NCBI RefSeq assembly: GCF_000002865.3
Contig: NW_001865083.1
Location: 39,585-91,038, forward strand
Source: Monosiga brevicollis MX1
Taxonomy: Eukaryota
Length of the DNA stretch: 51,454 nucleotides
Reading direction: 5' to 3'
Below, one piece after another: positions 5,142-50,084 of this stretch. Position 1 is the stretch's first letter, and every line of letters starts with the position of its first letter. A program made the translations under genes and the position numbers. The notes beneath the pieces were generated by a model, which worked only from the letters and a program-made list of their open reading frames with translations, did not search any database and was not told the origin of the DNA.

Positions 5142-7356
5142 ATGGTGTCGCCTTGGGTCGTGTGCAGTCTACTTGTGGTGATGGGGCCAGCAGTGGTTGG
5201 CGCCAGTGACGAATCAATAATCACGACTGATGCGCAGGGTAACCTCGTCATCAACGCCTCGTCAACAGGTGGCGATGCACGGGTTTGGATTAACGGAGTC
5301 GACGTGCTTCAAGAGCTGGCTGAGCTCCGCGAGATCTTGTTGGATCGCAAAACAACACCGACAGCATTGCCTCCCAGCACCACGGCCGCTCCCACAAACG
5401 CGCCTGTGACGTATACAGGCGATATCGGCTGTGGACTGGAGAACGTGCCCTTAGATGTCACGCATATCTTGGGCAACGTCAGCCTGATTTCGTGCCCCCT
5501 TCTCACAGCAAATGATCTCCTGCAAGCTTTTGGCAAGCTTGTTCAAGTGAGCGGGGACTTGACAGTAAGAGTGAGTTTCGATGGAGGATCATTGCCTGTT
5601 GTCTGTACATTGATGGGCGCGAACTGTATACCACGTCCCATCCTATTGAGGATTTCGCGGTGTAGCGATGCGAGCTCATCATCATTGGCTCTGAATGCAA
5701 TGCGATCATCCCAACTTTCGATGTGCCCATGGACGTGTGTGAGAGGGGCCAATCGGGAAAGATGAGCAATTTTGAGCGACTCAGTTTGTGCTCTGTTGAT
5801 GGTTGCAGGACAATGGCGCCCTGATTCATTTGGATGGGCTTGCAACTCTCACCAGCGTGGGCGGCGATTTGAATATTCGTGTACGTTGTCGCATGAGAGC
5901 GCATGGGCTTGATGTGACATGTGTTGACGAGGAGGGCAGCAAACTGGGACGATTGAGTGTGGGTCTGATGTGATGTGGTTATTCTCTGGCTGTCGCAGAA
6001 CAATTACAACCTGACCAACGTGAACGGCCTTGGCAATGTCACCAGCGTTGGCGACTATTTGAGCATCTACGTACGTTGTCGCACGAGAGGGGATGAAATT
6101 GATGTGACGTGTGTGAACGAGGAGGTCCGTGGACTGGGAGAATTGGGTGTGTTATTGACCGTTTGATGTGATGTGTTATTTCTCTGGCTGTCGCAGAGAA
6201 ATGCCGCCCTGACCAACGTGGACGGCCTTGGCAGTATCACCAGCATTGGCGACTATTTGAGCATTGGTGTACGTTGTCGCATGAGAGGGCATGAAGTTGA
6301 TGTGACGTGTGTGGACGAGGAGGTCCGTGGACTGGGACATTTGGGTGTGCTATTGACCGTTTGCTGTGGTGTGTTGTTTCTCTGGCGGTCGCAGGACAAT
6401 GACGTCTTGACCAACGTGGACGGTCTTGGCAGTGTCACCAGCGTTGGTGACTACTTATACATCTACGTACGTTGTCGCATGAGAGGGCATGAAGTTGATG
6501 TGACGTGTGTGGACGAGGGGATCAGCGGGCTGGGAGAATTTGGTTATGTTTGTGAGGGTCTGATGTGATGTGTTATTTCTCTGGCTGTCGCAGAGCAATG
6601 ACGCCTTGACCAACGTGGACGGCCTTGGCAATGTCACCAGCGTGGGCGACTTCTTGCGCATCTACGTACGTTGTCGCATGAGAGGGCATGAAGTTGATGT
6701 GACGTGTGTGGACGAGGGGATCAGCGGGCTGGGAGAATTTGGTATGTTTGTGAGGGTCTGATGTGATGTGTTGTTTCTCTGGCTCTCGCAGGACAATGGC
6801 GCCTTGACCAACGTGGACGGCCTTGGCAGTGTCACCAGCGTAGGCGACTATTTGAGCATTGACGTATGTTGTCGCATGAGAGGGGACGAAATTGATGTGA
6901 TGTGTGTGGACGAGGGGATCAGCGGGCTGGGAGAATTTGGTGTGTTTGTGAGGGTCTGATGTGATGTGTTGTTTCTCTGGCGGTCGCAGTACAATGATGT
7001 CTTGGCCAACGTGGACGGCCTTGGCAATATCACCAGCGTTGGCGACTACTTATACATTCGTGTACGTCGTCACATGAGAGGGCATGAAGTTGATGTGACG
7101 TGTGTCGGACGAGGAGGTCAGCAGACTGGGAGAATTCGGTATGTTTGTGAGGGTCTGATGTGATGTGCTGTTTCTCTGGCTGTCGCAGTACAATGCCGCC
7201 TTGACCAACGTGGACGGCCTTGGCAGTGTCACCAGCGTTGGTGGCAATTTGGTAATTTGTTCAAACTCTCAACTTGACACATCAATGGTACCTGCCTCTG
7301 TTCGATCGCTGGGCACATGCCAACGGATCACGAGCGGAGGTTGCGGCTTTTGTTGA
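5142..7356 (+). CDS. Secreted receptor-L-domain/LRR-like solenoid protein, locus A (9 exons)
   Basis: Exon 1 5142-5570: signal peptide, shared INGVDV module, Thr/Pro linker, YTGDI..first L turn. Seven 72-nt phase-0 exons: 5809-5880, 5999-6070, 6197-6268, 6395-6466, 6594-6665, 6792-6863, 6990-7061, consensus xNxxLTNVDGLGxxTSVGxxLxIx, each flanked by CAG and GTA(C/T)GT. Terminal exon 7189-7356 has a Cys cap ending GCGFC*. Confidence 0.88.
5809..7260 (+). repeat. Tandem ~198-bp exon+intron repeat array (8 repeat-coding exons)
   Basis: Recurrent TCTCTGGCTGTCGCAG...ACCAACGTGGACGGCCTTGGCA...GTACGTTGTCGCATGAGAGGG with ~190-199-bp period. Confidence 0.95.
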
Positions 7357-7854
7357 ACTGCTGCAAGTTATCGCTTTTCTTTCTGAGGTTTCTGGTTCTA
7401 AGCTACTAGCCGAGTGGTTGATTTGACTACAAGCATCGACCGCCTCGAGAAGAAATTAGCCAGTAATCGCTGCGGACGCTGCATCGTGTCACAACTCGCC
7501 TTATTAGCAGTTGTCCTGATCGTTTCGAGAACGTGTCGCGCTCTCCCACTTTTGAACTTTTTTTTCATGCTCAATTGGACGTCTCTGAAGCAACATGGTG
7601 TCACTAAATCAAGCTATACCTACTCGATCTCCCCCTCTCTCTGCCCCGCCCCTCCTCCCAAAACCAACACCAGTCGGGGGGCTTTGACGAACATCCGCTC
7701 CTTATGACATCCGATGTAATAAGAAAAATTCAAGAAAAAAAAAAAGAAAAAAAAAAGTTGATTTTGAAGGGACAATTTCAAACCAAAATCATTTTTCTGA
7801 CAAATCAGACACACTCACACACACACACACACACACACACGACGCGCCGCGATC

Positions 7855-9159
7855 ATGACGCGCGCGATGCGGATGCGGGCGCGACGACTCGTGCCACTGG
7901 TGTGCAGCGTCGTCTGCCTGGTCTGGGCTGTTGTGGCTGCCAGTGATGGTGGTGATAATGAGCCGACGATTACCGTGGGTGAGGATGGTACGCTGTTTGT
8001 GAATTCGAGCAAGCGTGTGGTGATCAATGGGGTGGATGTGTTGGCCGTGATGGCGTCGATCGCCGTGGATTTGAACCCGCGGGGCGTGATGCAGCCGCTG
8101 GAGAGTCACAACATCTCCACGGACGCGCAGGGTACACAGTCGGTGTATGTGGCAGATCTGGACAACAATGGCTTTATCGATGTCCTCAGCGCCAGCAATC
8201 ACGACGACAAGATTGCATGGTATCGCAATAACGGCAACGGCTCCTTTTCCGAAGAAATCATCATCACAACAGAGGCTCACGTTGCCACCTCGGTGTACGC
8301 AGCAGATCTCAACAATGACGGCGACCTTGACGTTCTCAGCGCCAGTTCTGAAGACAACACGATTGCTTGGTATCGCAACAACGGCGACGCCACCTTTTCT
8401 ACGGAGATGGTGATCACCACAGAAGCCCACAAGGCCGCCTCGGTGTATGCGGCGGACCTGGACAAGGACGACGACCTCGACGTCCTGAGCGCCAGCTCCG
8501 AGGACAACACGATTGCATGGTATCGCAACAATGGGGATGAGACTTTTTCCCCAAAGATCAACATTACCACGGACGCCAACGGTGCCTTCTCGGTGTATGC
8601 GGCCGATTTGGATAACGATGGCCATGTTGATGTTCTGAGCGCCAGCGTGGACGACAACAAGATTGCTTGGTATCGCAACCATGGGAACGGCACCTTCTCT
8701 GCACAACGCGTCATCACTACAGATGCCAACTATGCACGCTCTGTGTCTGCGGCGGATCTGGACAACGATGGCAATCTCGACGTTCTCAGCGCCAGCTGGA
8801 ACGACGACAAAATTGCCTGGTACCGCAACAACGGCAATGGCACCTTTTCCACCCAGATTGTCATCACCACCGACGCCGACAACGCAATCTCGGTGCATGC
8901 GGCGGATCTGGACAAGGATGGCTACGCCGACGTTCTCAGCGCCAGTGTCCACGACGACAAGATTGCGTGGTATCGCAACAACCGTGACGGCACTTTCTCC
9001 TCGCAGATCGTCATCACCAGAGACGTCGATGGTGCCCACTCGGTGATTGCAGCGGATCTGGACAACGATGGTCACATTGACGTTCTCAGCGCCAGCAAAC
9101 TCGACAACAAGATTGCTTGGTACCGCAATCAAGCAGGGCAAATCCTGTTGAATATGTAG
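7855..9159 (+). CDS. Secreted 7-bladed FG-GAP/VCBS-like beta-propeller protein 1, intronless
   Basis: Single ORF with hydrophobic signal (LVPLVCSVVCLVWAVVAA), INGVDV module, and seven ~49-aa repeats SVYAADLDNDGxxDVLSAS..DNKIAWYRN containing DxDxDG Ca-binding loops. Confidence 0.92.
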   Translation: MTRAMRMRARRLVPLVCSVVCLVWAVVAASDGGDNEPTITVGEDGTLFVNSSKRVVINGVDVLAVMASIAVDLNPRGVMQPLESHNISTDAQGTQSVYVADLDNNGFIDVLSASNHDDKIAWYRNNGNGSFSEEIIITTEAHVATSVYAADLNNDGDLDVLSASSEDNTIAWYRNNGDATFSTEMVITTEAHKAASVYAADLDKDDDLDVLSASSEDNTIAWYRNNGDETFSPKINITTDANGAFSVYAADLDNDGHVDVLSASVDDNKIAWYRNHGNGTFSAQRVITTDANYARSVSAADLDNDGNLDVLSASWNDDKIAWYRNNGNGTFSTQIVITTDADNAISVHAADLDKDGYADVLSASVHDDKIAWYRNNRDGTFSSQIVITRDVDGAHSVIAADLDNDGHIDVLSASKLDNKIAWYRNQAGQILLNM

Positions 9160-9700
9160 ACAAGTAGACTCGATGCCGTGCTCCCTCAAGCAAATTGATG
9201 AATTTTTTTGGACCCCCCATTTTTTTCTGCCTGACGCAGACGCAGGCTGCCTCGCGTGTTCTCCTGGTGAGAACAATGACCAAGCCAAGGCAATGAGCTC
9301 CAGCCTGAGGCATGTCGTCAGGGATGCAGAGGCCGTGCGGAACAACCGAGTCAAACTTATCTGGATTCTCAGCCACTGAGCAAATCTGACACACGTTCAA
9401 CGGCGATCTGAACCCAAAGATCCCCCCCAACCGCTCCCACTACGCCGCGGTAGCACCCGCTGGCCGGGTCTTGACCTTCCAGGGGAAAATAAAAAATTTA
9501 ATCTGATCAAAATTCAATTTTACACTCTTGAAACTTTAAGTCAACTACATGTACAAGTAGCGTCGATGTAAAAGTTTACAAGTCCAACAACAAGTAACGT
9601 CGATGTAAAAGTTTACACGTTGAAGTTTATCTGACAAATATAAACTTTACATCGGATGTCATTTTTTTTTTCTTTTGAGGACGAGGAGGACCATTGCGCG

Positions 9701-10975
9701 ATGCGGGCCCGGGGCCGGGCGCGAGTACTCGTGTGTAGCGTCTTCCTGGTCTGGGCTGTTGTGGCTGCCAGGGATGAGGAGCCGGTGTTTGCTGTGGATG
9801 ATGAGGGCACGCTGTTTATAAATTCGAGCAATCGCGTGGTGGTCAATGGGGTGGATGTGCTGGCCGTGTTGAGGACGATTGCCGTCGATTTGGATCCGCA
9901 GCGCGTGATGGAGCCGCTGGAGAGTCACAACATCTCCCTCAGTGCTGTCAATGTCTACACGGTGTATGCGGCAGATCTGGACAACGATGGCTATATCGAC
10001 GTTGTCAGCGCCAGCAACAACAACAAGATTGCATGGTACCGCAACGATGGCGATGGTGCGTTTTCTTCGCCGCGCGTCATCGCAACAAACGTCAGTGATG
10101 CCACCTCGGTGTTTGCGAGCGACTTGGACAATGACGGCCACCTGGACATTCTCAGCGCCAGTTGGCACGAGAATGCAATTGCGTGGTACCACAACAACGG
10201 CAACAGCACCTTTTCAACCCAGAAGGTCATCACCACGGAGGCGGCAGGTGCCCATTCGGTGTATGCGACGGACCTGGACAACGACGGCGACATGGACGTG
10301 CTCAGCGCCAGTTCTCGTGACGACAAGATTGCGTGGTACCGCAACAACGGCGATGGCTCCTTTTCCACCCAGATGGTCATCTTTGACGATCTCGACTTTG
10401 CGTACTCTGTGTATGCGGCAGATTTGGACAATGACGGTGACCTCGACGTCTTGGCTGCCGGAGCGGAGGACAACGCGATTGCGTGGTATCGCAATCATGG
10501 CAATGGCACGTTTTCTTCTCAAAAAGTCATTACCACAGACGCCGAGTATGCAACCTCGGTTTATGCCGCGGACCTGGACAACGACGGCGATATCGACGTC
10601 CTCAGTGCCAGCTGGAACGACGATAAAATTGCCTGGTACCGCAACCACGGCAATGGCACCTTCTCTCCCCAGATTGTTATTACGACAGAGGCCAATAGGG
10701 CCATCTCAGTGTATGCGAGGGACCTGGACAACGACGGCTATATCGACGTCCTGAGCGCCAGTGCTTTCGACGACAAGATTGCGTGGTATCACAACAACCG
10801 TGACGGCACCTTTTCCTCCCAAATCGTCATCACCACAGACGCCGACTATGCACGTGCGGTGCATGCGGCAGATCTGGACAACGACGGCTACCTTGACGTC
10901 CTAAGCGCCAGTGCGACCGACAACAAGATTGCCTGGTATCGCAATCAGGTGGGACAAGTGCTATTTAATTTTTAG
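9701..10975 (+). CDS. Secreted 7-bladed FG-GAP beta-propeller protein 2, intronless
   Basis: Paralog of 7855-9159. Likely start MRARGRARVLVCSVFLVWAVVAA; seven DLDNDG repeats. Confidence 0.92.
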   Translation: MRARGRARVLVCSVFLVWAVVAARDEEPVFAVDDEGTLFINSSNRVVVNGVDVLAVLRTIAVDLDPQRVMEPLESHNISLSAVNVYTVYAADLDNDGYIDVVSASNNNKIAWYRNDGDGAFSSPRVIATNVSDATSVFASDLDNDGHLDILSASWHENAIAWYHNNGNSTFSTQKVITTEAAGAHSVYATDLDNDGDMDVLSASSRDDKIAWYRNNGDGSFSTQMVIFDDLDFAYSVYAADLDNDGDLDVLAAGAEDNAIAWYRNHGNGTFSSQKVITTDAEYATSVYAADLDNDGDIDVLSASWNDDKIAWYRNHGNGTFSPQIVITTEANRAISVYARDLDNDGYIDVLSASAFDDKIAWYHNNRDGTFSSQIVITTDADYARAVHAADLDNDGYLDVLSASATDNKIAWYRNQVGQVLFNF

Positions 10976-11204
10976 TCAAATGCCAGCTGCTCGCCAAATT
11001 CTTCCAGCCAATTGACATTTGAAGCTGTTTCTCTTTTCGCCGACCTGGTTCATGCTGACGGCATATCCCACCAAGCCGTGCTGCAAGCTCAGTGAACACT
11101 GCATCATCTTCCCTCTCTTTCCTCAGCGTTGTTCAGGGGTTGCTTGCACATTCAGACCCGACTGCGTGCTGGTCAAGAGTAAAATATTATTTGGAGAAGA
11201 GGTC

Positions 11205-11245
<41 letters not shown>

Positions 11246-11680
11246 CTTGTTTTGAACAACGACCAGCGGTCACCAGGCCTAAATACCAATGTGCTGGTGG
11301 CGATCCGAACCACACCCGCATCAACGTGATTGCTTTATGCATCAACAAAAGTGTCTACCTTTATCGAATCTCCCTTGGGTGCGATAGTGGCAAAAGGCGC
11401 AATGGCTCGAGGATTTGTTCCAGCAAACCATTTCAACGAGGCCAACATGCGTTTCCTCAAAGCGATCCTCAGCCGATGCCTCAATGTCGAGTTCAGCAAG
11501 CCTCACCGACCGAACAGGAAGCACGTCCAAATTCACATCCGAACCACTGTGTGGCGCTCTCACCTCAATTTAAATCCGGTATAAAAATTCAAATTTAAAA
11601 CTCAATGAAGGATGAGATTTCATCTGACATTTCAGATCGTTTGTATTTTACTTTTCAGCTGTCGCACTCAAAATCTCACG

Positions 11681-12946
11681 ATGCGAGTTCGGGCACAACG
11701 GCGACTGATCTGCAGCGTCCTTCTGGTTTGCGCCGTGGGTGCCAGTGGTCAGGATCCATCCATTGCCGTGGATGAGGATGGGGCGCTGTTGATCAACGCG
11801 AGCAACCGTGTGGTGTTTAATGGTGTGGATGTGCTGGCCGTGCTCACGGCGATGGCTGTTGATTTGAACCCGCGGCGCGTGATGGCACCACTGGAGAGTC
11901 ACACGATTACCACCAACGCCATGTCGGCGCGTTCAGTGTATGCGGCAGATCTGGACAATGACGGCCATATCGACGTGCTCAGTGCTAGCTCGGCCGATGA
12001 CAAAATTGCCTGGTATCACAACCATGGTAACGGCACCTTCTCTACACAGAACATCATCGCCACAAACGAAACTGACACCTACTCGGTGTTTGCGGCAGAT
12101 CTGGACAACGATGGTCATACTGACGTCCTCAGCACCAGCTTCCTGGAGCACAGGGTTGCGTGGTATCGCAACCGTGGTGACGGCACGTTTTCCTCGCGGC
12201 GCATTGTCACCACTGACGCCGATGGTGCAATCGCAGTGTATGCGGCCGACCTGGACAACGACCGTGATCTCGACATTCTCAGCGCCAGTCGCGACGATCA
12301 CAAGATTGCCTGGTACCGCAACAATGGTGACGGCACTTTTTCCTCCCAAAAGGTCATCACCACCAATGTCGATGGTGCCGACTCGGTGTTTGCGGCAGAC
12401 CTGAACAACGACGGCGCCCTCGACATTCTCAGTGCCAGCCGCGACGACAACCAGATTGCCTGGTACCGCAACGATGGCGATGGCAACTTTTCCACACAGA
12501 TGGTCATTACCACAGATGCCGATGGCGCCATGTCGGTGTTTGCGGCTGACCTGGACAACGACGGTGCCGTGGATGTCCTCAGCGCTAGCCATCATGACAA
12601 CAAGATTGCGTGGTACCGCAACAATGGTGACGGCAACTTTTCCGCACAGATGGTCATCACCACAGAGGCCGAAGGCGCGAGCTCAGTCTATGCGGTGGAC
12701 TTGGACAACGACGGCCACCTCGACGTCCTGAGCGCCAGCTCCAGCGACGGCAAAATTGCGTGGTACCGTAACAACGGTGACGGCACGTTTTCTTCGCAAA
12801 TTGCCATTGTGACGGAGGGGGGTGGGGCCCACTCGGTATTTGCGGCAGATTTGGACAATGACGGCCACCTCGACGTCCTCGGTGCCATTACCTACGAGAA
12901 CAAGATTGCGTGGTACCGCAATCAAATTGGTCAAATGCTTTTATAA
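11681..12946 (+). CDS. Secreted 7-bladed FG-GAP beta-propeller protein 3, intronless
   Basis: Likely start MRVRAQRRLICSVLLVCAVGA; module PSIAVDEDGALLINASNRVVFNGVDVL; seven repeats. Confidence 0.92.
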   Translation: MRVRAQRRLICSVLLVCAVGASGQDPSIAVDEDGALLINASNRVVFNGVDVLAVLTAMAVDLNPRRVMAPLESHTITTNAMSARSVYAADLDNDGHIDVLSASSADDKIAWYHNHGNGTFSTQNIIATNETDTYSVFAADLDNDGHTDVLSTSFLEHRVAWYRNRGDGTFSSRRIVTTDADGAIAVYAADLDNDRDLDILSASRDDHKIAWYRNNGDGTFSSQKVITTNVDGADSVFAADLNNDGALDILSASRDDNQIAWYRNDGDGNFSTQMVITTDADGAMSVFAADLDNDGAVDVLSASHHDNKIAWYRNNGDGNFSAQMVITTEAEGASSVYAVDLDNDGHLDVLSASSSDGKIAWYRNNGDGTFSSQIAIVTEGGGAHSVFAADLDNDGHLDVLGAITYENKIAWYRNQIGQMLL

Positions 12947-13341
12947 ACTTGCTTGGCGGCTGCGCGCGTCTGACCAGCCAAACTGCTCTGCACCGAGAGT
13001 GCCGCAACATCGCGCCCAACAGCGCCGCGCGACCATTGATCAGGCCAGGAGCATTTCTGCCAATGCGTCACCCCTGCAGTGCACAGCGTCTCCGCTCGGG
13101 TACCTTGGTCTCTAAAGGAATACGAATGCACACTTCTGACTGTACCTGAATTCAAGAGAAAAGAATGCAATTCATAAACACTGTCTCTTATCATCAAGAA
13201 CAACTTCTTTACCACACGTAACAGCAAAAAGAGCTTTGAATTTTTATAACATTCGGATGTAAACTTTCATAATAAATTAAAAATGTCAGAATATTATGAC
13301 ATCTGAGCACTTTCTTTTTTCTTTTGGTGTTCAAGAGCTCG

Positions 13342-14619
13342 ATGATGATGCGGGCACTGGTGGCGTCCAGCGTCCTCGTGCTTCTGGGCTGGGCTGTGAC
13401 GGCCAGTGAGGATGATGATGTGCCGGTTATTGCCGTGGGTGAGGATGGGGCGTTGTTGATCAATGCGAGCAATCGTGTGGTGGTCAATGGTGTGGATGTG
13501 CTGGCCGTGCTCACGGCGATGGCGATTGATTTGAACCCGCGGCGTGTGATGGCCCCTGTGGAGAGTCACGCGATTACCGCCAACGCCGGGTCGGCGCGTT
13601 CGGTGTATGCGGCAGATCTGGACAACGACGGACATATCGACGTCCTCAGTGCCAGCGTGTCGGACAGCAAGATTGCCTGGTATCGCAACAATGGCAACGG
13701 CACCTTCTCTACTCAGAACATCATCACCCGAAGCGCCGTTTCTGCCTTTTCGGTGTTTGCGGCCGACCTCGACCGTGACGGTGATACTGACGTTCTCAGC
13801 GCCAGCTTCACCGATGACAAGATTGCGTGGTATCGCAACCGTGGTGATGGCACGTTTTCCGCACAGATCACCATCAGTGCAGAGGCCGATGGTGCGTCCT
13901 CGGTGTACGCGGCGGACCTGGACGAAGATGGCGACTTTGACATTCTCAGCGCCAGCCACAAGGACGACAAGATTGCGTGGTACCGCAACAACGGCGATGG
14001 CAACTTTTCCGCACCGATTAACATCACCACAAACGCCGATGGTGCCTACTCGGTTTATGCGGCAGACCTGGACAACGACGGTGACATGGATGTTCTCAGC
14101 GCCAGCTACAACGACGACAAGATTGCGTGGTATCGCAACAATGGCGACGGCAACTTTTCCGCACCGATTAACATCACCACGGACGACAAGGGTGCGTCTT
14201 CAGTGTATGCGGCGGACCTGGACAACGACGGCGACATGGACGTGCTCAGCGCCAGTGTTCATGACGACAAGATTGCGTGGTACCGCAATCATGGTAATGG
14301 CACCTTTTCCGCGCCAAACGTTGTCACCACAGACGCCCTCTACGCGCGCTCAGTGTATGCCGCAGACCTGGACAAGGATGGCAACCTGGACATTCTCAGT
14401 GCCAGTATTGATGACGACAAGATTGCCTGGTACCGCAATCATGGTAACGGCACCTTTTCCTCGCAGATGAGCATCACCACGGACGTCGGCGGTGCGTACT
14501 CGGTGTTTGCGGCGGACCTAGACAACGACGGCAACCTCGACGTTCTCAGTGCCGGCTCGCATGATGGCAAGATTACGTGGTATCGCAACCAGATGAGGCA
14601 AGTACTATTAAACTTGTAG
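13342..14619 (+). CDS. Secreted 7-bladed FG-GAP beta-propeller protein 4, intronless
   Basis: Start MMMRALVASSVLVLLGWAVTA; same module; seven repeats. Confidence 0.92.
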   Translation: MMMRALVASSVLVLLGWAVTASEDDDVPVIAVGEDGALLINASNRVVVNGVDVLAVLTAMAIDLNPRRVMAPVESHAITANAGSARSVYAADLDNDGHIDVLSASVSDSKIAWYRNNGNGTFSTQNIITRSAVSAFSVFAADLDRDGDTDVLSASFTDDKIAWYRNRGDGTFSAQITISAEADGASSVYAADLDEDGDFDILSASHKDDKIAWYRNNGDGNFSAPINITTNADGAYSVYAADLDNDGDMDVLSASYNDDKIAWYRNNGDGNFSAPINITTDDKGASSVYAADLDNDGDMDVLSASVHDDKIAWYRNHGNGTFSAPNVVTTDALYARSVYAADLDKDGNLDILSASIDDDKIAWYRNHGNGTFSSQMSITTDVGGAYSVFAADLDNDGNLDVLSAGSHDGKITWYRNQMRQVLLNL

Positions 14620-15079
14620 CCGACTCCACGGACCTTGATCAGGGCCTTGGGCGGTGCGTGAATCCTTTTTTTTTTTTTTTTTTTTTTTTCTGTGTCTGGC
14701 AAGCCAGGTTACCCGAACATCGTGAGGGACTCAGATAGCTCGAAGCGCTACAACGCATTGAGAGTCATACTTTTCTGTTTTCGCGCACCATTATCCGCCT
14801 CTGTGAACCATCAACAGGTGGCACAGCTTGAATCGAAATACTTTTCCCAACGAACAACGCACGCCTCACTCTCACTCGACGCTCACACAGAGCATAAGCG
14901 AGAGCAAGAGCGAGAACGAGATTCCACGTACAGCTGCTCACATCTTCCCCCGTCCCCATCAGCCGTCTCCTCGACCCATCGCCCATCGCCCATCCGCCCA
15001 TCGCACAACGACCCGCCGTGACGCAGACCCCCATATAACACACATCACTGATTGTCAGAAAATTATTGTCAGAAGGTTC

Positions 15080-15202
15080 TCAGAGAGACGAGAGAAGACA
15101 GAGAGATGAGAGAAGACAGGAGACAGAGAGACAGAGAGACAGGGAGAGAGACTGAGAGACAGAGAGACAGAGAGACAGAGAGACAGAGAGACAGAGAGAC
15201 TG
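15080..15202. repeat. GA/GACA-rich simple repeat abutting the gap
   Basis: (AGAGAC/AGAGAGAC)n. Confidence 0.9.
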
Positions 15203-16111
15203 NNNNNNNNNNNNNNNNNNNNNNNNNNNNNNNNNNNNNNNNNNNNNNNNNNNNNNNNNNNNNNNNNNNNNNNNNNNNNNNNNNNNNNNNNNNNNNNNNN
15301 NNNNNNNNNNNNNNNNNNNNNNNNNNNNNNNNNNNNNNNNNNNNNNNNNNNNNNNNNNNNNNNNNNNNNNNNNNNNNNNNNNNNNNNNNNNNNNNNNNNN
15401 NNNNNNNNNNNNNNNNNNNNNNNNNNNNNNNNNNNNNNNNNNNNNNNNNNNNNNNNNNNNNNNNNNNNNNNNNNNNNNNNNNNNNNNNNNNNNNNNNNNN
15501 NNNNNNNNNNNNNNNNNNNNNNNNNNNNNNNNNNNNNNNNNNNNNNNNNNNNNNNNNNNNNNNNNNNNNNNNNNNNNNNNNNNNNNNNNNNNNNNNNNNN
15601 NNNNNNNNNNNNNNNNNNNNNNNNNNNNNNNNNNNNNNNNNNNNNNNNNNNNNNNNNNNNNNNNNNNNNNNNNNNNNNNNNNNNNNNNNNNNNNNNNNNN
15701 NNNNNNNNNNNNNNNNNNNNNNNNNNNNNNNNNNNNNNNNNNNNNNNNNNNNNNNNNNNNNNNNNNNNNNNNNNNNNNNNNNNNNNNNNNNNNNNNNNNN
15801 NNNNNNNNNNNNNNNNNNNNNNNNNNNNNNNNNNNNNNNNNNNNNNNNNNNNNNNNNNNNNNNNNNNNNNNNNNNNNNNNNNNNNNNNNNNNNNNNNNNN
15901 NNNNNNNNNNNNNNNNNNNNNNNNNNNNNNNNNNNNNNNNNNNNNNNNNNNNNNNNNNNNNNNNNNNNNNNNNNNNNNNNNNNNNNNNNNNNNNNNNNNN
16001 NNNNNNNNNNNNNNNNNNNNNNNNNNNNNNNNNNNNNNNNNNNNNNNNNNNNNNNNNNNNNNNNNNNNNNNNNNNNNNNNNNNNNNNNNNNNNNNNNNNN
16101 NNNNNNNNNNN
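15203..16111. other. Assembly gap (N run)
   Basis: Run of N. Confidence 1.
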
Positions 16112-16249
16112 CCACACACACACACGCGCGCGCACTTTCCCTCTTTATCTGCACAGAGTCAAAAAAAAAAGCACATTATCAGCATTGTGACATTAAATTT
16201 TTTTTCATACATCCGATAAAATCTCTCTCTCAAACCGACCAAACCAATT

Positions 16250-16507
16250 CATCTCTCTTCTCTCTCCCTCTGTCTCTGTCTCTGTCTTGGTCTCTGTCTC
16301 TGTCTCTGTCTCTCTCTCTGTCTCTCTCTCTGTCTCTCTCTCTGTCTCTCTCTCTGTCTCTCTCTCTGTCTCTCTCTCTGTCTCTCTCTCTGTCTCTCTC
16401 GCTCTCTCTCTTTCTCTCTCTCTGTCTCTCACCAAATCAATTCATCTCTCTCTCTCTCTCTCTCCCTCTCTGTCTCTCTCTCTGTCTCTCTCTCTGTCTC
16501 TCTCTCG

Positions 16508-16538
<31 letters not shown>

Positions 16539-16625
16539 TCTGTCTCTCACCAAATCAATTCATCTCTCTCTCTCTCTTCTCTCTCTCTTCTCTCTCCCTC
16601 TCTCTCTTCTCTTTCTCTCTCTCTG

Positions 16626-16667
<42 letters not shown>

Positions 16668-16791
16668 TTTCAATCTCTCTCTCTCTGAATGAGCATCCCA
16701 TACGATACACACACTTTATCCAGGGTACGTATTGAGAGCCCCATGATGTGCGTACAGCGAGAGGACGTCCCGCTTTCTGCCCCGTGTCCTC

Positions 16792-16835
<44 letters not shown>
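16250..16835. repeat. Long CT-rich microsatellite followed by (TG)n
   Basis: (TC)n and (TCTCTCTCTG)n at 16250-16686; (TG)n at ~16793-16835. Confidence 0.95.
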
Positions 16836-16837
<2 letters not shown>

Positions 16838-17583
16838 TGGCGGACGGGCGGGCGTTCCTGGGGCTTGGCTCGCTTGTGTCTGCGCTCGCTTGTTGGCCCC
16901 TTCTTCTGTTTCTGCGTGCGTGTCCTCTTGTCTCTCTGCGCTCTGTCGCACCGCTGAGGACTGACGCTGACCTTGCACCGTGTCTGTGCGATCTTCGCGC
17001 GTCCTCTGTGATCTTGCTCTTTGCGATCGATCACCGCCTGCGCTCGTTCGCCCCCTGTGCCCGACCTCTGTGCTCGTGCTTTGTGATCATACTGCGTGTT
17101 GGTTCTTCCTCTTTGCCCGTCGTCCTTTTTTGTGGCTCGTGCGGTCTCGGATCTGATCCTCAGATCTAAACGTTGGTGTTGAGATCTGATCATTGGTCCG
17201 TGCGTGGCCCATTCTCCCCGGGTGCTGCTGCCACCGCCGACTCTTTCTCCCCCGACCGCGTCGACAAAGCCTTTATCGACGCCATCGTCGTCTTTGTCTT
17301 TTTCGTTTTTTTTTTTTTTTTCGGCAATCTCGCTTGTCTCTCATCCTCTGCTCCTCCGACCCTTTACCGTCCACCTGTTGCTGGCAAAGGCGTCCTCGCC
17401 TTGTTCACATCAGTCCATAGACGCCATACTAGCTGGTTCACCAGACCAGCACCCTTGCTTTGTTCGTCCCGCTCCTTGTCCGGCCCCGGGGGGCTCGACC
17501 CTTTTCCTTTTCCGGAGCTCGACCCTTTTCCGGAGCTCGATCGACGGCGAGAGGACATCAGCCAAAGTGCCTCAGACGACAGG

Positions 17584-20430
17584 ATGCGGCTCAAACACCA
17601 AGCCAATGCCCATGCATGGATGTTGCTGGCAATCATGGCGATTGCGAGTCGGGGTAAGCTGAAAAAAAAATCTTGGCACACGCCGCGAACTCATGAAAAA
17701 AAAAAAAAGAGAGAGAGAGACAGAACCATCACGACTGATCCACCTCCGATGCCGATGGCACCTCATAGATGTGGCAGCCGATGTTCTTACAGTGTCCGTA
17801 GGATCTGGCAGCTTTGATGACCTTGGTGAGCTTTTCTTGATGGGATGCTAGTGCCGCAATCGCCTACCCTGCTTACGACATTTGACCGTACGTTGTAGAT
17901 CCCGTTGCTTGGGAAAGCGACATTTATCTGCAATTTGTCTTTGGCAACCGCGTCCACACTACAAGCACAATTGAAGACGACAACTGTGCGCCCCTTTGCC
18001 TTCACCCGCCTTTGCCCTCACCACACCATACGGACCGTGTTACTTCAGCTGATCCCACGCAACCTCGTCCCTTTCCTCCATTATTGCTCCCCTTTCGTTG
18101 CTCCCTTGCTCGGCCTTTAGACCCCGACTGGAATGGACAGACGATTACCATTTCTTTGGTTTCTAGAACCGTCAGTGGCTCGCCGTGTGCTCATCCCCTT
18201 CGGCCTTGGACATTGATTTATCTTGCTCATGCCGTATTCCGGGCCATGCCCTTGCCCGCACGGGTGACGCTTTGCATTGACCTGCTAGTCATCGATAACT
18301 GTCCGCGCTTACGACGCTGACGTCGGTTCACTCGACGAATCAGTTAGTCTATCAATGCCAAACTCTTTCCTTCCCACCCCATGTTTGATTCCTGATTCGA
18401 CCTGACAAGCGCACTTGCCTTCCCCCCTTCATCAGGCAGGCTCGACAACCATGAGCAGCATCCATGTGTATCGGCAACGCCGTACACTGAGATTCTCTCG
18501 CGGTTCAGTCTCAGTCACTCTCACATACAACCCTTGTGAGTACCCATCGCCAAGCATCTTGACCGGCTTGAAGGGCTCATGACGTTTGTCCTTCACCCAT
18601 TCTACACAATCGAGCGCAGATAATGTTTGTTACGCAGGCACCGACAACTGCGGAAGCAACACGGCCTGCGTGTTCACAGGCCATAGGGCCTACGTCTGCC
18701 AATGTAACGCGGGCTACTATCACCCCTATAGCGGGAGCAGGAACGGCATCTCATGCACCCCTTGGCAACAATGCAATGGCACTGAATACGAGCACAACGA
18801 ACCAAACGCCGTGACAGATCGAGAGTGTCGAACCTGCGTGACTACCTCATATGGAGCCGATCCGACACGCGGGGATCAAGTAGTTGCCGTTGACAACTGC
18901 GGCGGCCTTCGCTTCGAAGCCACTGCAGGCGTCCACATGAACGGGGTCAACGTCCTTGACCGCTTGAACGTGCTCGAGGATCTCGTCAAACTTCATCCCG
19001 GATTTGTCGTGCCTGAACCCGAGACACTTGTGGCCAATACCGATGCACCATCCATTGCTGTGGACAACAACGGCACCCTCCACATCAACGCCTCAGGTCG
19101 CATCCTGATCAACGGCGCTGATCTCGCCGAGCGCTTTACCCTGCTTGAAGCGTTGGCTCAGCTCCACCCCGATCTGCCACCGCCTCCACCCAACGAGCAT
19201 CAGAGCAATGTCACCGAGCCCTCCATCTCCATCGGCGACAACAACTACCTGCTCATCGACGCCACCAATGGCATTCTGATTAATGGCGTCGATGCCTTGG
19301 AGCGGCTGCAAGTTGTAAAATCGCTGGTGCAGCTCCACCTCGAATCACTGGTGCCGCAGTTTGAGAGGCGTGCCATTTCCACCACCGCCGACGGAGCATC
19401 TGTGGTGCTTGCAGTCGACCTGGACAACGACGGCAACGTGGATGTCCTCGGTGCCAGCATAGAGGACAGCACCATTGCGTGGTTCCGCAACAGTGGAAAC
19501 GGCTCTTCTTTCCAGCGAAACGTCATTACGGCCTCTGCAGTCGATATCGCGTCAGTGCATGCGGCAGACCTGGACGGCGATGGCGACAGCGACGTCCTCA
19601 GCGCCAGCTTTATCGATGACAGAATTACGTGGTACCGCAATAACGGAAACGGGACATTTGATGATCATGTTACCATTACCAACGCGGCTACTGAAGCGCG
19701 CTCAGTGTACGCAGCGGATCTGGACAATGACGGCGACCTCGATGTCCTGAGCGCCGCCTATGGTATCGACACCATTGCGTGGTATCGCAATGATGGCACC
19801 TTTTCCGGCCCAATTGTCATCACCAACGCTGCCAACGGCGCGTTCTGCGTACATGCAGCTGACCTTGATAACGACGGAGATATGGATGTCCTCAGTGCTA
19901 ACTCAGTTGGCAATACGATCACCTGGTACCGCAACGACGGCACGGGCGTGTTTCCGCAGACACTGTTCGTTGCTTCCTCTGTCGATAGCCCGCGATCCGT
20001 CTATGCAGCAGATCTCAATCAGGATGGCTTCTTGGATGTCATCAGTGCCAACAGTGGCGACAATAGTATCGCATGGTACCAAAACCAGGGTGGCACTGGG
20101 TTTTCAGCGCCACATGTCATCACTACGACTGCCTCCTATGCCTTGGCAGTCTACGCAGCGGATCTGGATCAAGATGGGGACATGGACGTTCTCAGCGCTA
20201 GCGTAGTTGATAACAAAATTGCTTGGTATCGCAACAATGGCCAAGGCTCCTTTTCCAGCCCTTTTGTCATCTCGACCTCCGCCCTTTACGCGTATTCAGT
20301 CTACGCTGCAGACCTGGACCACGACGGTGATTTGGACGTACTCAGTGCCAGCAATTCCGACAACACGATTGCGTGGTACGCCTCCAATAGCCAACAGAAC
20401 GACAGACTCCGAGACAGTATCCGGACGTGA
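17584..20430 (+). CDS. Secreted multidomain protein: signal peptide - C2 domain - EGF - TNFR-like Cys repeat - 3x INGVDV module - 7-bladed FG-GAP propeller (7 exons)
   Basis: Phase-consistent exons 17584-17653, 17769-17825, 17899-17985, 18121-18170, 18289-18342, 18436-18535, 18620-20430. They give DVLTVSVGSGSFDDLDPVAWESDIYLQFVFGNRVHTTSTIEDDNYPDWN...ITVRAYDADVGSLDESAG (C2 pattern), a 6-Cys EGF, CTPWQQC..TDREC, and seven DLDNDG blades. Confidence 0.82.
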
Positions 20431-21077: not shown

Positions 21078-22097
21078 TCAATTCGTAGGTGTGACTTGAG
21101 CGGCCAGGCAGTCACAAAACATTTGTAGGTCTTGAAGATTGAACAATTGCGGATCCACGCGCGAGCCGATGCTATAGAGAACAGCAGCAACGCACCGGCG
21201 TCTCATCTGCTCCGCATGAATCAAGCCTTGAACTGCCGCCACATTGAAATCCGATGAGAGCAAGACAATGCGGACAATCACATGTGAATCAAATTTGCAC
21301 CTTGGGAATTCAAAGTTTGGGAGCAAGGGGTACGGCTTGCGCCCAATAGTTCTTCAATTAGCTACAAAGTGAAACAGGTTCATCGGTGAGCAAGCTTGCC
21401 TCTGCAATGAATACCACGAATAAAAAAAGAAGGCCCACCTCCCGCTCGATGGGGTCTCCGCGAATGAGCAAATCCAAGGGTCGTGCACCCGTCTGCCACA
21501 AGAGGCCATCAGGTGTCAATTGCGGGTGCAGCAGAATAGCGTAAAAAAAAAAGGCATCGTGGTTGAAGGCTTACAAGATCTCTCGCATCCGGGTCGGCAC
21601 CGTGCCGCAAGAGTTGGCGGATAACCTTTCGGTTGACAGAGATGGGAGTGCAGACTGTATGGAGCGGCGTTTGGCCGTCCTATATGATGTGCTCAATGTT
21701 TGAGATCATGAGGAACAAGTTCTTGGCGGGAGGAAGATACAGCAGGAAACAAGACGGGGTGGAGGGAGCACCGACGAGGAGAGGACGCGAAACGGTGAAA
21801 GAACAGGGATAGGGGGAAAGAAGAAAAGAAGCAAGGGGCAGAACGAACGCGGACGGGGAGCAGGGTGTAGAGGACAAAAAGACGGCACAGAGGCGACGAA
21901 CAGCGGGAACAGCAGCAGCCGCCAGAGGAAAAGGAAGGAAGAGGAAGGAAGAGGGAGATGCTGTACTGACGTCGGTCTTGGCGTCAGTATCAACACCGTG
22001 CTCCAACAGCATCTCCACCACCTCGACACGACCCTCACGGCAGGCCCAGTGCAGTGGTGTCCAGCCAAACTGTGGAATGATGCATCGGCATTAGGTA

Positions 22098-22144
<47 letters not shown>

Positions 22145-22550
22145 GCATCAGCATCATCATCATCATCATGTGGTCCAGGTGCACCATCATAGGGGGTTTA
22201 AAGGGGAAGGAGGGTACTGTACTGTACTGACGTTGGTCTTGGCTTTAGCATCAGCACCGTGCTTCAACAGCATCTCCACCACCTCGACATGATCGTTAAA
22301 GCAAGCCCAGTGCAGTGCTGTATGGCCATCCTGTAGGAAGATGCACACAATGTACACAACATCCACATGTCAGTGACACATCCACTTTGTAGCCAGTATC
22401 ACTTGACAGCATACCAAACAGCATACGTACCAAATTCTTGTATTGGGCGGCAGCTTGAATACGTTCATGGTCCCAACTGGTCAACAGCTGCACCGCCTTT
22501 TGTCGATTTGATACACACGCCCTGAACAGCTGCGCTCCATCATCACTCAT
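21078..22550 (-). CDS. Ankyrin-repeat protein, copy A (multi-exon; 3' end less certain)
   Basis: Exons 22550-22431; 22330-22232 (DGHTALHWACFNDHVEVVEMLLKHGAD, 99 nt); 22069-21971 (FGWTPLHWAC.., 99 nt); 21679-21575 (DGQTPLH..LLRHGADPDARD); then small exons to TGA at 21078. Confidence 0.8.
22097..22168. repeat. (CAT)n trinucleotide repeat inside an ankyrin-gene intron
   Basis: Direct reading. Confidence 0.9.
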
Positions 22551-23185
22551 GGTATCGGTATCTCTCTGTCTCTATTCTCCATCCGCTTCAAGGGACCTTT
22601 TGCTTCCCCTATCCACCAGGAATCTCATGAGCCCCCTCCAAGTACAACTCGTCTGACAATCCAAAGTTACGGATCTGCGTTCCCAAAACGGCAGCCGGTC
22701 AGTCACCCTTGTGCTTCCCCCCTGATGCGCCAAGCGACTGACCTCTGGCAAAAGCCCCGTTGATCAGCTTCAAAGGGGAGGGGGGGGGTGGTAGTTGAAG
22801 CAGCGCACGATCGGTGACCTTCACACCCACTGAAAAAAAAAAAAAAAAAAAGTGGCAGTGGATCTCTTTCAACCAAACCGACAAGGCCTCACCGCAAGGG
22901 AAGCTGCCGTACCACCAAAAATGCAAGCAGGATCAAGACCCCGCACGCAATAGCCCAACGCAACCAGCAGCCAGACCCCGATGCCGATCCCGCAACCCGC
23001 GACCCGATCCCGATCCCTCGATGCTAGCAGAAGCAGAAGCAGAAGCAGAAGCAGAGAAGCAGAAGAAAAGTGCAACACCCACACCAAAGGTTTTGACATA
23101 AGAAGAAAAAAAAGAAAAAAGAAGATTTTGTGAGTCAAATGTAAAATGTAAATCCGCCTTGGCTGTGTGCTCTTTTGAAACGTCA

Positions 23186-43287: not shown

Positions 43288-46200
43288 ATGGTGTCGCCTT
43301 GGGTCGTGTGCAGTCTACTTGTGGTGATGGGACCAGCAGTGGTTCACGCCGGTGACGAATCAATGATCACGACTGATGCGCAGGGTAACCTCGTTATCAA
43401 CGCCTCGTCAACAGGTGGAGATAAACGAATTTGGATGAACGGAGTCGATGTACTTCGGGAGCTGGCTGAGCTCCGCGAGATCTTGCTGGACCACAAAACA
43501 ACACCGACAACATTGACCCCCAGCACCACGGCCGCTCCCACGAACGCGCCTGTGACGTATACAGGCGATATCGGCTGTGGACTGGAGAACGTGCCCTCGG
43601 ATGTGACGCATATCTTGGGCAACGTCAGCCTGATTTCGTGCCCCCTTCTGACAGCAAATGATCTCCTGCAAGCTTTTGGCAAGCTTGTTCAAGTGAGCGG
43701 GGACTTGACAGTAAGAGTGAGTTTCGATGGAGGATCATTGTCTGTTGTCTGTACATTGATGGGCGCGAACTGTATACCACGTCCCATCCTATTGAGGATT
43801 TCGCGGTGTAGCGATGTGAGCTCATCATCAATGGCTCTGAATGCAATGCGATCATCCCAACTTTCGATGAGCTCATGACATGTGTGAGAGGCACCAATCG
43901 GGAAAGATGAGCAATTTTGAGCGACTCAGTTTGTGCTCTGTTGATGGTTGCAGGACAATGGCGCCCTGATTCATTTGGATGGGCTTGCAACTCTCACCAG
44001 CGTTGGCGGCGATTTGAATATTCGTGTACGTTGTCGCATGAGAGCGCATGGGCTTGATGTGACATGTGTTGACGAGGAGGGCAGCAAACTGGGACGATTG
44101 AGTGTGGGTCTGATGTGATGTGGTTATTCTCTGGCTGTCGCAGAACAATTACAACCTGACCAACGTGGACGGCCTGGGCAATATCACCAGCGTGGGCAGC
44201 TCCTTGAGCATTGGTGTACGTTGTGGCATGAGGGGGCATGAGATTGGTGGACGAGGAGGTCCGCGGACTGAGACGATTGAGTGTGTTTGTGAGGGTCTGA
44301 TGTGATGTGTTGTTTCTCTGGCTATCGCAGAACAATGTCGCCCTGACCAACGTGGACGGCCTGGGCAATATCACCAGCGTTGGCGGCTACTTGAGCATTC
44401 TAGTACGTTGTGGCATGAGAGGGCATGAAATTGACGTGACGTGTGTGAACGAGGAGGTCAGAATTAGATGTGTTTGTGAGGGTCTGATGTGATGTGTTAT
44501 TTTTCTGGCTGGCGCAGGGCAATGGCGCCCTGACCAACGTGGACGGCCTGGGCAATATCACCAGCGTTGGCGACTATTTGAGCATTACGTACGTTGTGGC
44601 ATGAGAGGGGATGAAATTGATGTGACGTGTGTGAACGAGGAGGTCCGTGGACTGGGACAATTGGGTGTGTTATTGACCGTTTGATGTGATGTGTTATTTC
44701 TCTGGCTGTCGCAGAGAAATGCCGCCCTGACCAACGTGGATGGCCTTGGCAGTATCACCAGCATTGGCGACTACTTATACATTGGTGTACGTTGTGGCAT
44801 GAGAGGAAATGAAATTGATGTGTCGTGTGTGGAAGAGCAGGTCCGCGGACTTGGAGAGTTGGATGCGTTTGCGAGGGTCTGATGTGATGTGTCATTTCTC
44901 TGGCTGTCGCAGAACAATGGCGACCTGACCAACGTGGACGGCCTTGGCAATATCACCTGGTTGGCGGCTACTTGAGCATTGCTGTACGTTGTCGCTTGAG
45001 AGGGCCTGAAATTGAGGTGACGTGTGTGGACGAGCAGGTCCGCGGACTGGGAGAATTGGAAGTGTTTGCGAGGGTTGGATGTGATATGTCATTTTTCTGG
45101 CTGGCGCAGGGCAATGACGTCCTGACCAACGTGGACGGCCTGGGCAATATCACCAGCGTTGGTGACTACTTATACATTGGTGTACGTTGTCGCATGAGAG
45201 GAAATGAAATTGATGTGTCGTGTGTGGAAGAGCAGGTCCGCGGACTTGGAGAGTTGGATGTGTTTGCGAGGGTTGGATGTGATGTGTCATTTCTCTGGCT
45301 GTCGCAGAACAATGGCAACCTGACCAACGTGGACGGCCTTGGCAACATCACCAGCGTTGGCGGGTATTTGACCATCTACGTACGTTGACGTATGAGAGGG
45401 GATGAAATTGATGTGACGTGTGTGAACGAGGAGGTCCGTGGACTGGGAGAATTGGGTGTGTTATTGACCGTTTGATGTGATGTGATATTTCTCTGGCTAT
45501 CGCAGAACAATGACGCCTTGACCAACGTGGACGGCCTGGGCAATATCACCCGCGTTGGTGGCTACATGAGCATTGGTGTACGTTGTCGCATGAGACGGCA
45601 TGAAATTGATGTGACGTGTGTGGAAGAGCAGGTCCGCGGACTGTGAGAGTTGGATGTGCGTTTGAGGGTCTTGATGTGATGTGGTATTTTTCTGGCTGTC
45701 GCAGGGCAATGGCGCCCTGACCAACATGGACGGCCTGGGCAATATCACCAGCGTGGGCAGCTCCTTGAGCATTGGTGTACGTTGTGGCATGAGGGGGCAT
45801 GAGATTGGTGGACGAGGAGGTCCGCGGACTGAGACGATTGAGTGTGTTTGTGAGGGTCTGATGTGATGTGTTGTTTCTCTGGCTGTCGCAGGACAATGGC
45901 AACCTGACCAACGTGGACGGCCTGGGCAATATCACCAGCGTTGGCGGCCACTTGAGCATTCAAGTACGTTGACGTATGAGAGGGCATGAAATTGACGTGA
46001 CGCGTGTGGACGAGGAGGTCCGTGGACTGGGACAATTGGGTGTGTTATTGACCGTTTGATGTGATGTGTTATTTCTCTGGCTGTCGCAGAACAATGCCGC
46101 CCTGACCAACGTGGGCGGCCTTGGCAATATCACCAGCGTTGGCGGCGACTTATACATTGGTGTACGTTGTCGCATGAGAGGGGATGAAATTGACGTGACG

Positions 46201-47212
46201 CGTGTGGACGAGGAGGTCCGTGGACTGGGACAATTGGGTGTGTTATTGACCGTTTGATGTGATGTGTTATTTCTCTGGCTGTCGCAGAGAAATGCCGCCC
46301 TGACCAACGTGGACGGCCTTGGCAATATCACCAGCATTGGCGACTACTTGAGCATTGGTGTACGTTGTCGCATGAGAGGGGATGAAATTGATGTGACGTG
46401 TGTGGACGAGGACCGGGACAATTGGGTGTGTTATTGACCGTTTGATGTGATGTGTTATTTCTCTGGCTGTCGCAGAGAAATGCCGCCCTGACCAACGTGG
46501 ACGGCCTTGGCAGTATCACCAGCGTGGGCGACTATTTGAGCATTGGTGTACGTTGTCGCATGAGAGGGGATGAAATTGATGTGACGTGTGTGAACGAGGA
46601 CTGGGACAATTGGGTGTGTTATTGACCGTTTGATGTGATGTGTTATTTCTCTGGCTGTCGCAGAGAAATGCCGCCCTGACCAACGTGGACGGCCTTGGCA
46701 GTATCACCAGCGTGGGCGGCGCTTTGAGCATTTGTGTACGTTGTCGCATGAGAATCAATGAAATTGCCTATGTGACGTTGTGTGAACGATCACAGGGACA
46801 ATTGGGTGTGTTATTGACCGTTTGATGTGATGTGTTATTTCTCTGGCTGTCGCAGAGAAATGCCGCCCTGACCAACGTGGACGGCCTTGGCAGTATCACC
46901 AGCGTGGGCGACTATTTGAGCATTGGTGTCCAACTCTCGCATGAGAGGGGATGAAATTGATGTGACGTGTGTGAACGAGGACTGGGACAATTGGGTGTGT
47001 TATTGACCGTTTGATGTGATGTGTTATTTCTCTGGCTGTCGCAGAGAAATGCCGCCCTGACCAACGTGGACGGCCTTGGCAGTATCACCAGCGTGGGCGG
47101 CGCTTTGAGCATTTGTTCCAACTCTCAACTTGACACATCAATGGTACCTGCCTCTGTTCGATCGTTGGGCACATGCCAACTCATCACGAGCGGAGCTTGC
47201 AGCTCTTGCTGA
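43288..47212 (+). CDS. Secreted receptor-L-domain/LRR-like solenoid protein, locus B (18 exons; two repeat exons are 71 nt and frameshifted)
   Basis: Exon 1 43288-43716 is near-identical to locus A. Repeat exons start at 43954, 44144, 44331, 44518 (71 nt), 44715, 44913 (71 nt), 45110, 45308, 45506, 45705, 45892, 46090, 46288, 46476, 46664 and 46856. Terminal exon 47045-47212 ends ACSSC*. Confidence 0.82.
43954..47116 (+). repeat. Tandem ~187-198-bp exon+intron repeat array (17 repeat-coding exons)
   Basis: Same unit as 5809-7260. Confidence 0.95.
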
Positions 47213-49878: not shown

Positions 49879-50084
49879 GCCGTCTTTTTGCCTGTTTTTG
49901 TATTCGAGTTGTCTTTTGATCGATGAATTGCATTTTATACGACATGCATGTACATAATATTTGTAAAGCCAAGAAGGGAATCCTAGCGGGGCGGAAGGTC
50001 ATCTTGCATATCAATTTGATTCGTCTGGACTCGACAGGCTCTCATCCACCCGCGACTCATCTCGCGGCGATTATTTTGGCTCTT

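What the first reader, a model, noticed from the sequence alone, without database searches (positions are those of the whole stretch)
5208..19335. A shared ~40-aa module resembling the cubilin N-terminal trimerisation domain links two unrelated repeat families
Seen: the motif P.I.V..DG.L.INAS.RV.INGVDVL..L..L occurs just after the signal peptide in both L-solenoid genes (~5208, ~43354) and all four FG-GAP genes (~7957, 9772, 11750, 13417), and three times in the C2-EGF gene (~18871, 19042, 19213): 9 copies in 7 genes. From recalled sequence, cubilin's N-terminus (PRM.TERGNLVF...GKIKLNDEDL plus a helix) forms a trimeric beta-helix/coiled coil that docks on amnionless. Inference: this is a common oligomerisation or docking tag carrying interchangeable variable heads (propeller or solenoid), i.e. 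a modular secreted capture system whose members could hetero-oligomerise or bind one membrane anchor.
Basis: partly seen in the sequence, partly recalled or inferred. Interest (0 to 1): 0.82.

Follow-up and report, generated by a model that had tools for sequence, protein, structure and literature searches.

The report
Cubilin-like joining module in choanoflagellate secretome
Seven secreted-protein genes in this choanoflagellate region, and at least ten more genes of the same species, share a short unannotated module attached to many different binding heads; it likely joins three chains together in the way the front end of the human vitamin-B12 receptor cubilin does, but neither the trimer nor a membrane anchor has been shown.

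Summary
Observation confirmed: nine copies of a ~45-residue module in seven genes. HMMs built from one gene family find the others (E 5e-11 to 1e-3 for 14 of 18 cross-family copies; best background 0.5). The window is Monosiga brevicollis. At least ten more M. brevicollis proteins, a Salpingoeca kvevrii protein and unnamed environmental proteins carry the module, on L-domain, FG-GAP, Kelch, LamG and glycine-rich heads. No Pfam, PHROG or NCBIfam family covers it. A confident monomer model (pLDDT 84) shows short strands running into an amphipathic helix. Foldseek ranks the cubilin N-terminal chain (6gje_C) first in a library of 350,542 PDB chains, but only at E 0.93. VIA-align and sequence profiles do not confirm the match. 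Four proteins carry three tandem copies; none carries more. Best reading (0.6): a mobile, cubilin-like trimerisation module that gives secreted binding heads avidity. Trimer formation, mixing of chains and amnionless docking are inferred or untested. The 'C2-EGF' gene is a spliced 742-aa protein whose three internal copies precede a fifth propeller.

The parts
5142..7356 (+). L-solenoid gene L1: signal peptide, module, Thr/Pro linker, receptor-L-type solenoid encoded one rung per 72-nt exon; 366 aa in my 9-exon model; corresponds to M. brevicollis MONBRDRAFT_34686
   Evidence: (PF01030 E 4.4e-6 on P0052)
5202..5360 (+). module copy in L1 (the copy that was modelled)
7855..9159 (+). intronless FG-GAP propeller gene F1 (434 aa): signal peptide, module, propeller
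7951..8088 (+). module copy in F1
9701..10975 (+). FG-GAP propeller gene F2 (424 aa from the ATG at 9701)
9770..9907 (+). module copy in F2
11681..12946 (+). FG-GAP propeller gene F3 (421 aa)
11744..11881 (+). module copy in F3
13342..14619 (+). FG-GAP propeller gene F4 (425 aa)
13411..13548 (+). module copy in F4
17584..20430 (+). 7-exon gene, 742 aa: signal peptide, C2-like segment (by eye), EGF and TNFR-like Cys-rich domains, three tandem modules (period 57 aa), FG-GAP propeller
   Evidence: six GT..AG joints in contigs of runs X3 and X4 (one study); spliced frame open; Pfam
18865..19011 (+). tandem module 1 (most divergent)
19036..19182 (+). tandem module 2
19207..19353 (+). tandem module 3
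43288..47212 (+). L-solenoid gene L2, recent paralogue of L1 (403 of 430 nt identical in exon 1) with 17 rung exons; two of them are 71 nt
43348..43506 (+). module copy in L2

Best explanation
The module is a mobile ~45-residue domain shared by unrelated secreted proteins, and it likely works as a cubilin-type trimerisation unit: the short strands of three chains would intertwine into a small three-sided beta-helix and the following helices would form a three-stranded coiled coil. Each trimer would present three copies of whatever head follows (propeller, L-solenoid, Kelch, LamG, glycine-rich) and so gain avidity for repetitive surfaces such as bacterial prey or matrix. Shown: the module, its spread over many heads, its place after the signal peptide in six of seven window genes, no C-terminal membrane segment, and the splicing of the triple-copy gene. 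Predicted: the strand-hairpin-helix fold. Inferred: the trimer and the avidity role. Proteins with three linker-separated copies would fold as single-chain pseudo-trimers (inferred). Whether the open end of the beta-helix is capped by an amnionless-like anchor is open.
For: Alternating large hydrophobic residues at alignment columns 7, 15, 17, 28 and 30 (97-100% of 32 rows; column 9 66%) and a helix with hydrophobic columns 35, 36, 39, 42 (84-97%) and 46 (62%), a heptad-like pattern. Monomer model from 32 rows: pLDDT 83.6, pTM 0.55, strands 6-9 and 15-18, short hairpin 29-34, helix 35-50. Foldseek against the PDB: rank 1 of 228 matches (350,542 chains) is cubilin(36-135), 6gje_C, the candidate named beforehand; ranks 4-6 are the trimeric adhesin NadA. 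Cubilin's domain is an intertwined three-chain beta-helix with an N-terminal hairpin, followed by a coiled coil (PMC6283879, passages). Four distinct proteins have three tandem copies (window gene, P0007, P0008/P0059, P0012) and none of those examined has more. Three of the four have 21-39-residue linkers rich in Pro, Thr or Gly. 0 of 27 module proteins show a hydrophobic 19-residue peak near the C-terminus, as for cubilin, which has no membrane segment of its own. The module precedes a hydrophobic-leader cut-off in 18 of 31 proteins (misses include fragments and internal or C-terminal copies).
Against: The cubilin match is not significant: E 0.93, prob 0.21, TMq 0.33, rmsd 7.6, and rank 2 is unrelated at E 1.1. 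Profile and single-sequence searches of PDB sequences never listed cubilin at E<=10. One family has two full copies, not three (P0055, P0057). In P0012 the three copies are joined by continuous helix-like sequence without Pro, which fits a beaded three-chain fibre and not fold-back, so 'three copies' is not a clean trimer signal. In the four FG-GAP genes the helix is only about 12 residues before a Pro. The copy sits at the C-terminus in P0021 and internally in two proteins, unlike cubilin. A dimer or tetramer would give a similar hydrophobic pattern.
Confidence: 0.6

Rival explanations
1. Pre-animal cubam system: the module is a true cubilin N-terminal homologue, and the trimers dock on an amnionless-like membrane protein that internalises them, so one anchor would serve a repertoire of interchangeable, possibly mixed, capture heads.
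For: Rank-1 cubilin match. No membrane anchors in the module proteins. The first-strand hydrophobic position is 97% conserved; in cubilin the N-terminal strands 42-49 with Met44 at the centre form the amnionless contact, and uncapped beta-helix ends tend to aggregate (PMC6283879). Cubn/Cubn2 heterotrimers are reported in Drosophila (PMC8710305). An unchecked AI note mentions choanoflagellate amnionless homologues (e1-5461588; a lead only).
Against: No F-x-N-P-x-[YF] motif in any six-frame segment of the window and no Amnionless Pfam hit among the window ORFs scanned. Internal and C-terminal copies (window gene 17584-20430, P0047, P0021) would have the docking face blocked or reoriented. The conserved hydrophobic residue may simply be core.
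Confidence: 0.17
2. Analogous oligomerisation neck: a beta-to-coiled-coil transition of the kind found in trimeric adhesin or phage fibre stalks, resembling cubilin only by convergence, with a chain number that need not be three.
For: NadA at ranks 4-6. A trimeric-autotransporter fragment tops the phmmer list for P0038 (E 0.78, partly through its coiled-coil portion). A 'Peptidase S74' cluster appears in the Atlas at 0.76, below the lead threshold. P0012 looks like a beaded fibre. Larsen et al. liken cubilin's helix to phage and T6SS spikes.
Against: No PHROG family is hit by more than 1 of 32 rows. No BFVD match at E<=0.001. Only one chance phage tblastn hit, E 7. All 12 named module proteins are from choanoflagellates.
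Confidence: 0.15
3. Monomeric pro-segment or secretion/folding tag: an N-glycosylated leader that helps ER folding or sorting, or is cleaved, without oligomerising the heads.
For: It usually sits right after the signal peptide (18 of 31). An N-x-S/T sequon lies at the same columns in 23 of 32 rows and 7 of 9 window copies.
Against: The modelled monomer is an extended strand-and-helix chain with many conserved hydrophobic positions that need a partner (inference). C-terminal, internal and triple copies fit a leader role poorly. Some homologues extend the helix into long heptad-like runs (P0038, P0057).
Confidence: 0.08

Closest known systems
Cubilin N-terminal domain in cubam (PDB 6GJE; Larsen et al. 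2018, PMC6283879)
   Same: Short beta-strands with an N-terminal hairpin running into a coiled-coil helix, just after the signal peptide of a protein with no membrane segment; top Foldseek match (58 columns, 22% identity).
   Different: The module is about 45 residues with three strands and a 12-16-residue helix; cubilin's region spans residues 36-131 with a three-turn helix and a long coil. Heads are propellers, L-solenoids, Kelch, LamG or Gly-rich domains, not 8 EGF plus 27 CUB. It occurs in 1-3 copies and at N-terminal, internal or C-terminal positions, in at least 17 genes of one species. No sequence-profile link was detected.
Trimeric autotransporter adhesins (NadA, PDB 6EUN/6EUP) and phage/T6SS spike beta-helices
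   Same: Beta-to-coiled-coil junction in a trimeric stalk; NadA ranks 4-6 at E about 3.
   Different: No beta-barrel anchor or chaperone domain; eukaryotic signal peptides and introns; no PHROG or BFVD support.
Collectins, ficolins and C1q-family proteins (recalled; not from a call)
   Same: Functional logic: a shared oligomerising stalk carrying interchangeable recognition heads for avidity.
   Different: Those use collagen triple helices and neck coils; this module has no Gly-X-Y repeat.
VCBS / FG-GAP_3 propellers (Pereira and Lupas 2021, PMC8023676)
   Same: The five propeller heads are highly repetitive, secreted members (PF13517, E<1e-72).
   Different: The passages I read do not mention choanoflagellates or coiled coils (0 occurrences of those terms); the N-terminal module is not part of the family.

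Membership tests
Cubilin N-terminal domain | Lies after a signal peptide in a secreted protein without its own membrane anchor | tested here: met
   6 of 7 window genes; 18 of 31 homologues by a hydropathy rule; 0 of 27 with a C-terminal hydrophobic peak. Hydropathy only, no SignalP.
Cubilin N-terminal domain | N-terminal beta-hairpin and short strands with alternating hydrophobic core, followed by a heptad helix | tested here: met
   shorter than cubilin's region (PMC6283879)
Cubilin N-terminal domain | Structure superposes on the cubilin chain of 6GJE | tested here: inconclusive
Cubilin N-terminal domain | Detectable profile-to-sequence similarity to cubilin | tested here: not met
   no cubilin chain at E<=10 in six PDB sequence searches
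Cubilin N-terminal domain | Profile-profile homology to a cubilin alignment | not testable with these tools
Cubilin N-terminal domain | Forms an intertwined homotrimer | not testable with these tools
Cubilin / cubam receptor | Followed by EGF repeats and CUB domains | tested here: not met
   no CUB hit in any module protein scanned; the single EGF in the triple-copy gene precedes the modules
Cubilin / cubam receptor | Docks on amnionless | not testable with these tools
   no whole genome held and no amnionless query available; none seen in the window
Trimeric autotransporter adhesin / phage fibre | C-terminal beta-barrel anchor or S74 chaperone; match to phage or bacterial families | tested here: not met

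The most novel reading that the evidence does not exclude
Choanoflagellates run a cubam-like capture system older than animals: dozens of secreted heads plug through one cubilin-type trimer module, possibly in mixed trimers, into a shared amnionless-like endocytic anchor, and animal cubilin is the one surviving client.
Probability: 0.17. Interest if true: 0.88.

Novelty: new variant of a known kind. Interest (0 to 1): 0.6.

Why it matters
The cubilin trimer domain was reported without close structural homologues and traced only from insects to man (PMC6283879). [quoted passage not shown] That would give a concrete, testable entry to how choanoflagellates recognise prey or build their surface coat, and to the origin of the cubam receptor. 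Even without the cubilin link it defines an unannotated domain that marks at least 17 M. brevicollis genes with unrelated heads.

Full report
Source and genes. The window is an intron-rich eukaryotic scaffold. The gene at 5142 matches the database protein P0052, named MONBRDRAFT_34686 of Monosiga brevicollis MX1. No whole genome was held. The region holds an L-solenoid gene (5142-7356), four intronless FG-GAP propeller genes in tandem (7855-14619; 63-70% identical to each other), and a seven-exon gene at 17584-20430; a second L-solenoid gene lies at 43288-47212. Contigs of two runs from one study skip six GT..AG introns in the seven-exon gene, while two other runs keep them, and the spliced frame is open for 742 aa. 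It reads signal peptide, C2-like segment (by eye; no Pfam hit on three pieces), EGF and TNFR-like domains (weak Pfam hits), three modules, FG-GAP propeller.

Observation. Nine copies are present where stated, and no tenth is found in 1203 six-frame segments. Leave-family-out HMMs recover 14 of 18 cross-family copies at iE 4e-3 or better against a background of 0.5 or worse; the four misses are one C2-gene copy with the FG-GAP HMM and, with the two-row L HMM, the weak or unlisted remainder (by that HMM 3 of 7 are recovered; by the C2-gene HMM 6 of 6; by the FG-GAP HMM 4 of 5, which gives 13 clear hits plus the whole-protein C2-gene hit at 1.3e-4). Cross-family identity is 24-47%; within the L pair it is 88% and within the FG-GAP four 66-89%, so the nine copies are fewer than nine independent events.

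Spread. A profile search of 1.84 billion representatives gave 47 hits at E<=0.001; 24 carry the whole module. Two further searches added seven proteins (12 of 7994 and 6 of 7994 candidates). Of 30 clusters looked up, 11 contain a named M. brevicollis protein (one is the window's L1 gene), one is Salpingoeca kvevrii and 18 name no organism. That makes at least 17 M. brevicollis genes. Heads with Pfam support: receptor L domain, FG-GAP, Kelch, ALK/LTK-type or Gly_rich_2 glycine-rich domain, and LamG. The module itself matches no Pfam, PHROG or NCBIfam family with more than one of 32 rows. It usually follows a hydrophobic leader (18 of 31), but it is C-terminal in P0021 and internal in the window's seven-exon gene and in P0047. 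None of 27 proteins has a C-terminal hydrophobic segment (some are fragments). Copy number is one in most, two in the P0028/P0055/P0057 family, P0047 and some fragments, three in four proteins, and never more among those examined.

Anatomy. The 32-row alignment shows strand, D-x-x-G turn, strand ending in an N-x-S/T sequon (23 of 32 rows), a variable loop, strand, an invariant Gly in an N-G turn, then a helix with hydrophobic residues at columns 35, 36, 39, 42 and 46. AlphaFold2 with this alignment gave pLDDT 83.6 with that secondary structure. The single-sequence fold of the three tandem copies failed.

Mechanism. The most economical reading is a trimerisation plug that makes each secreted head trivalent. 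The trimer and the avidity role are inferred. Three of the four triple-copy proteins have 21-39-residue flexible-looking linkers that could let one chain fold back into a pseudo-trimer; P0012 lacks such linkers and would more likely form a beaded three-chain fibre. Mixed trimers have a precedent in Drosophila Cubn/Cubn2 (PMC8710305; passages and section 12 read), but nothing here shows them.

Novelty and score. My searches found no paper describing the module; the library lacks most subscription papers, and 4 of 16 supplements of PMC6040629 were not searched. I rate it a new variant of a known kind: an unannotated, promiscuous domain, probably of the cubilin trimer type. Interest 0.6; the cubam-ancestor reading has probability about 0.17 and would deserve 0.88.

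Noticed in passing
window 5809-7356 and 43954-47212: Each solenoid rung is a 72-nt exon inside a duplicated exon-plus-intron unit (8 in L1, 17 in L2), with variation concentrated at a few rung positions; rung number differs between two recent paralogues.
   Followed up: partly
window 44518 and 44913: Two L2 rung exons are 71 nt, not 72, so L2 is frameshifted, mis-assembled, or skips these exons.
   Followed up: partly
window 5142-7356: The database model P0052 (423 aa) appears to read through intron sequence; a clean 9-exon model gives 366 aa.
   Followed up: partly
   Followed up: partly
window 42242-40276, minus strand: Secreted protein with a right-handed beta-helix and a chitobiase C-terminal-like domain, bacterial in style, divergent from gene L2.
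   Followed up: partly
window about 21600-22600 and 25100-26000, minus strand: Two copies of a short intron-rich gene whose repeats look like ankyrin repeats (by eye), within a locally duplicated block.
   Followed up: no
window about 48400-49880: Gene with a signal-like leader and a pirin-like cupin sequence (name recalled).
   Followed up: no
module alignment A2, columns 18-20: A conserved N-x-S/T sequon in 23 of 32 rows; it may be glycosylated or the Asn may be structural.
   Followed up: partly
P0020, P0056: Database gene models fuse a module protein to a methyltransferase or a PALP enzyme; in P0056 an internal signal-like segment precedes the module, so these are likely annotation fusions.
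   Followed up: no
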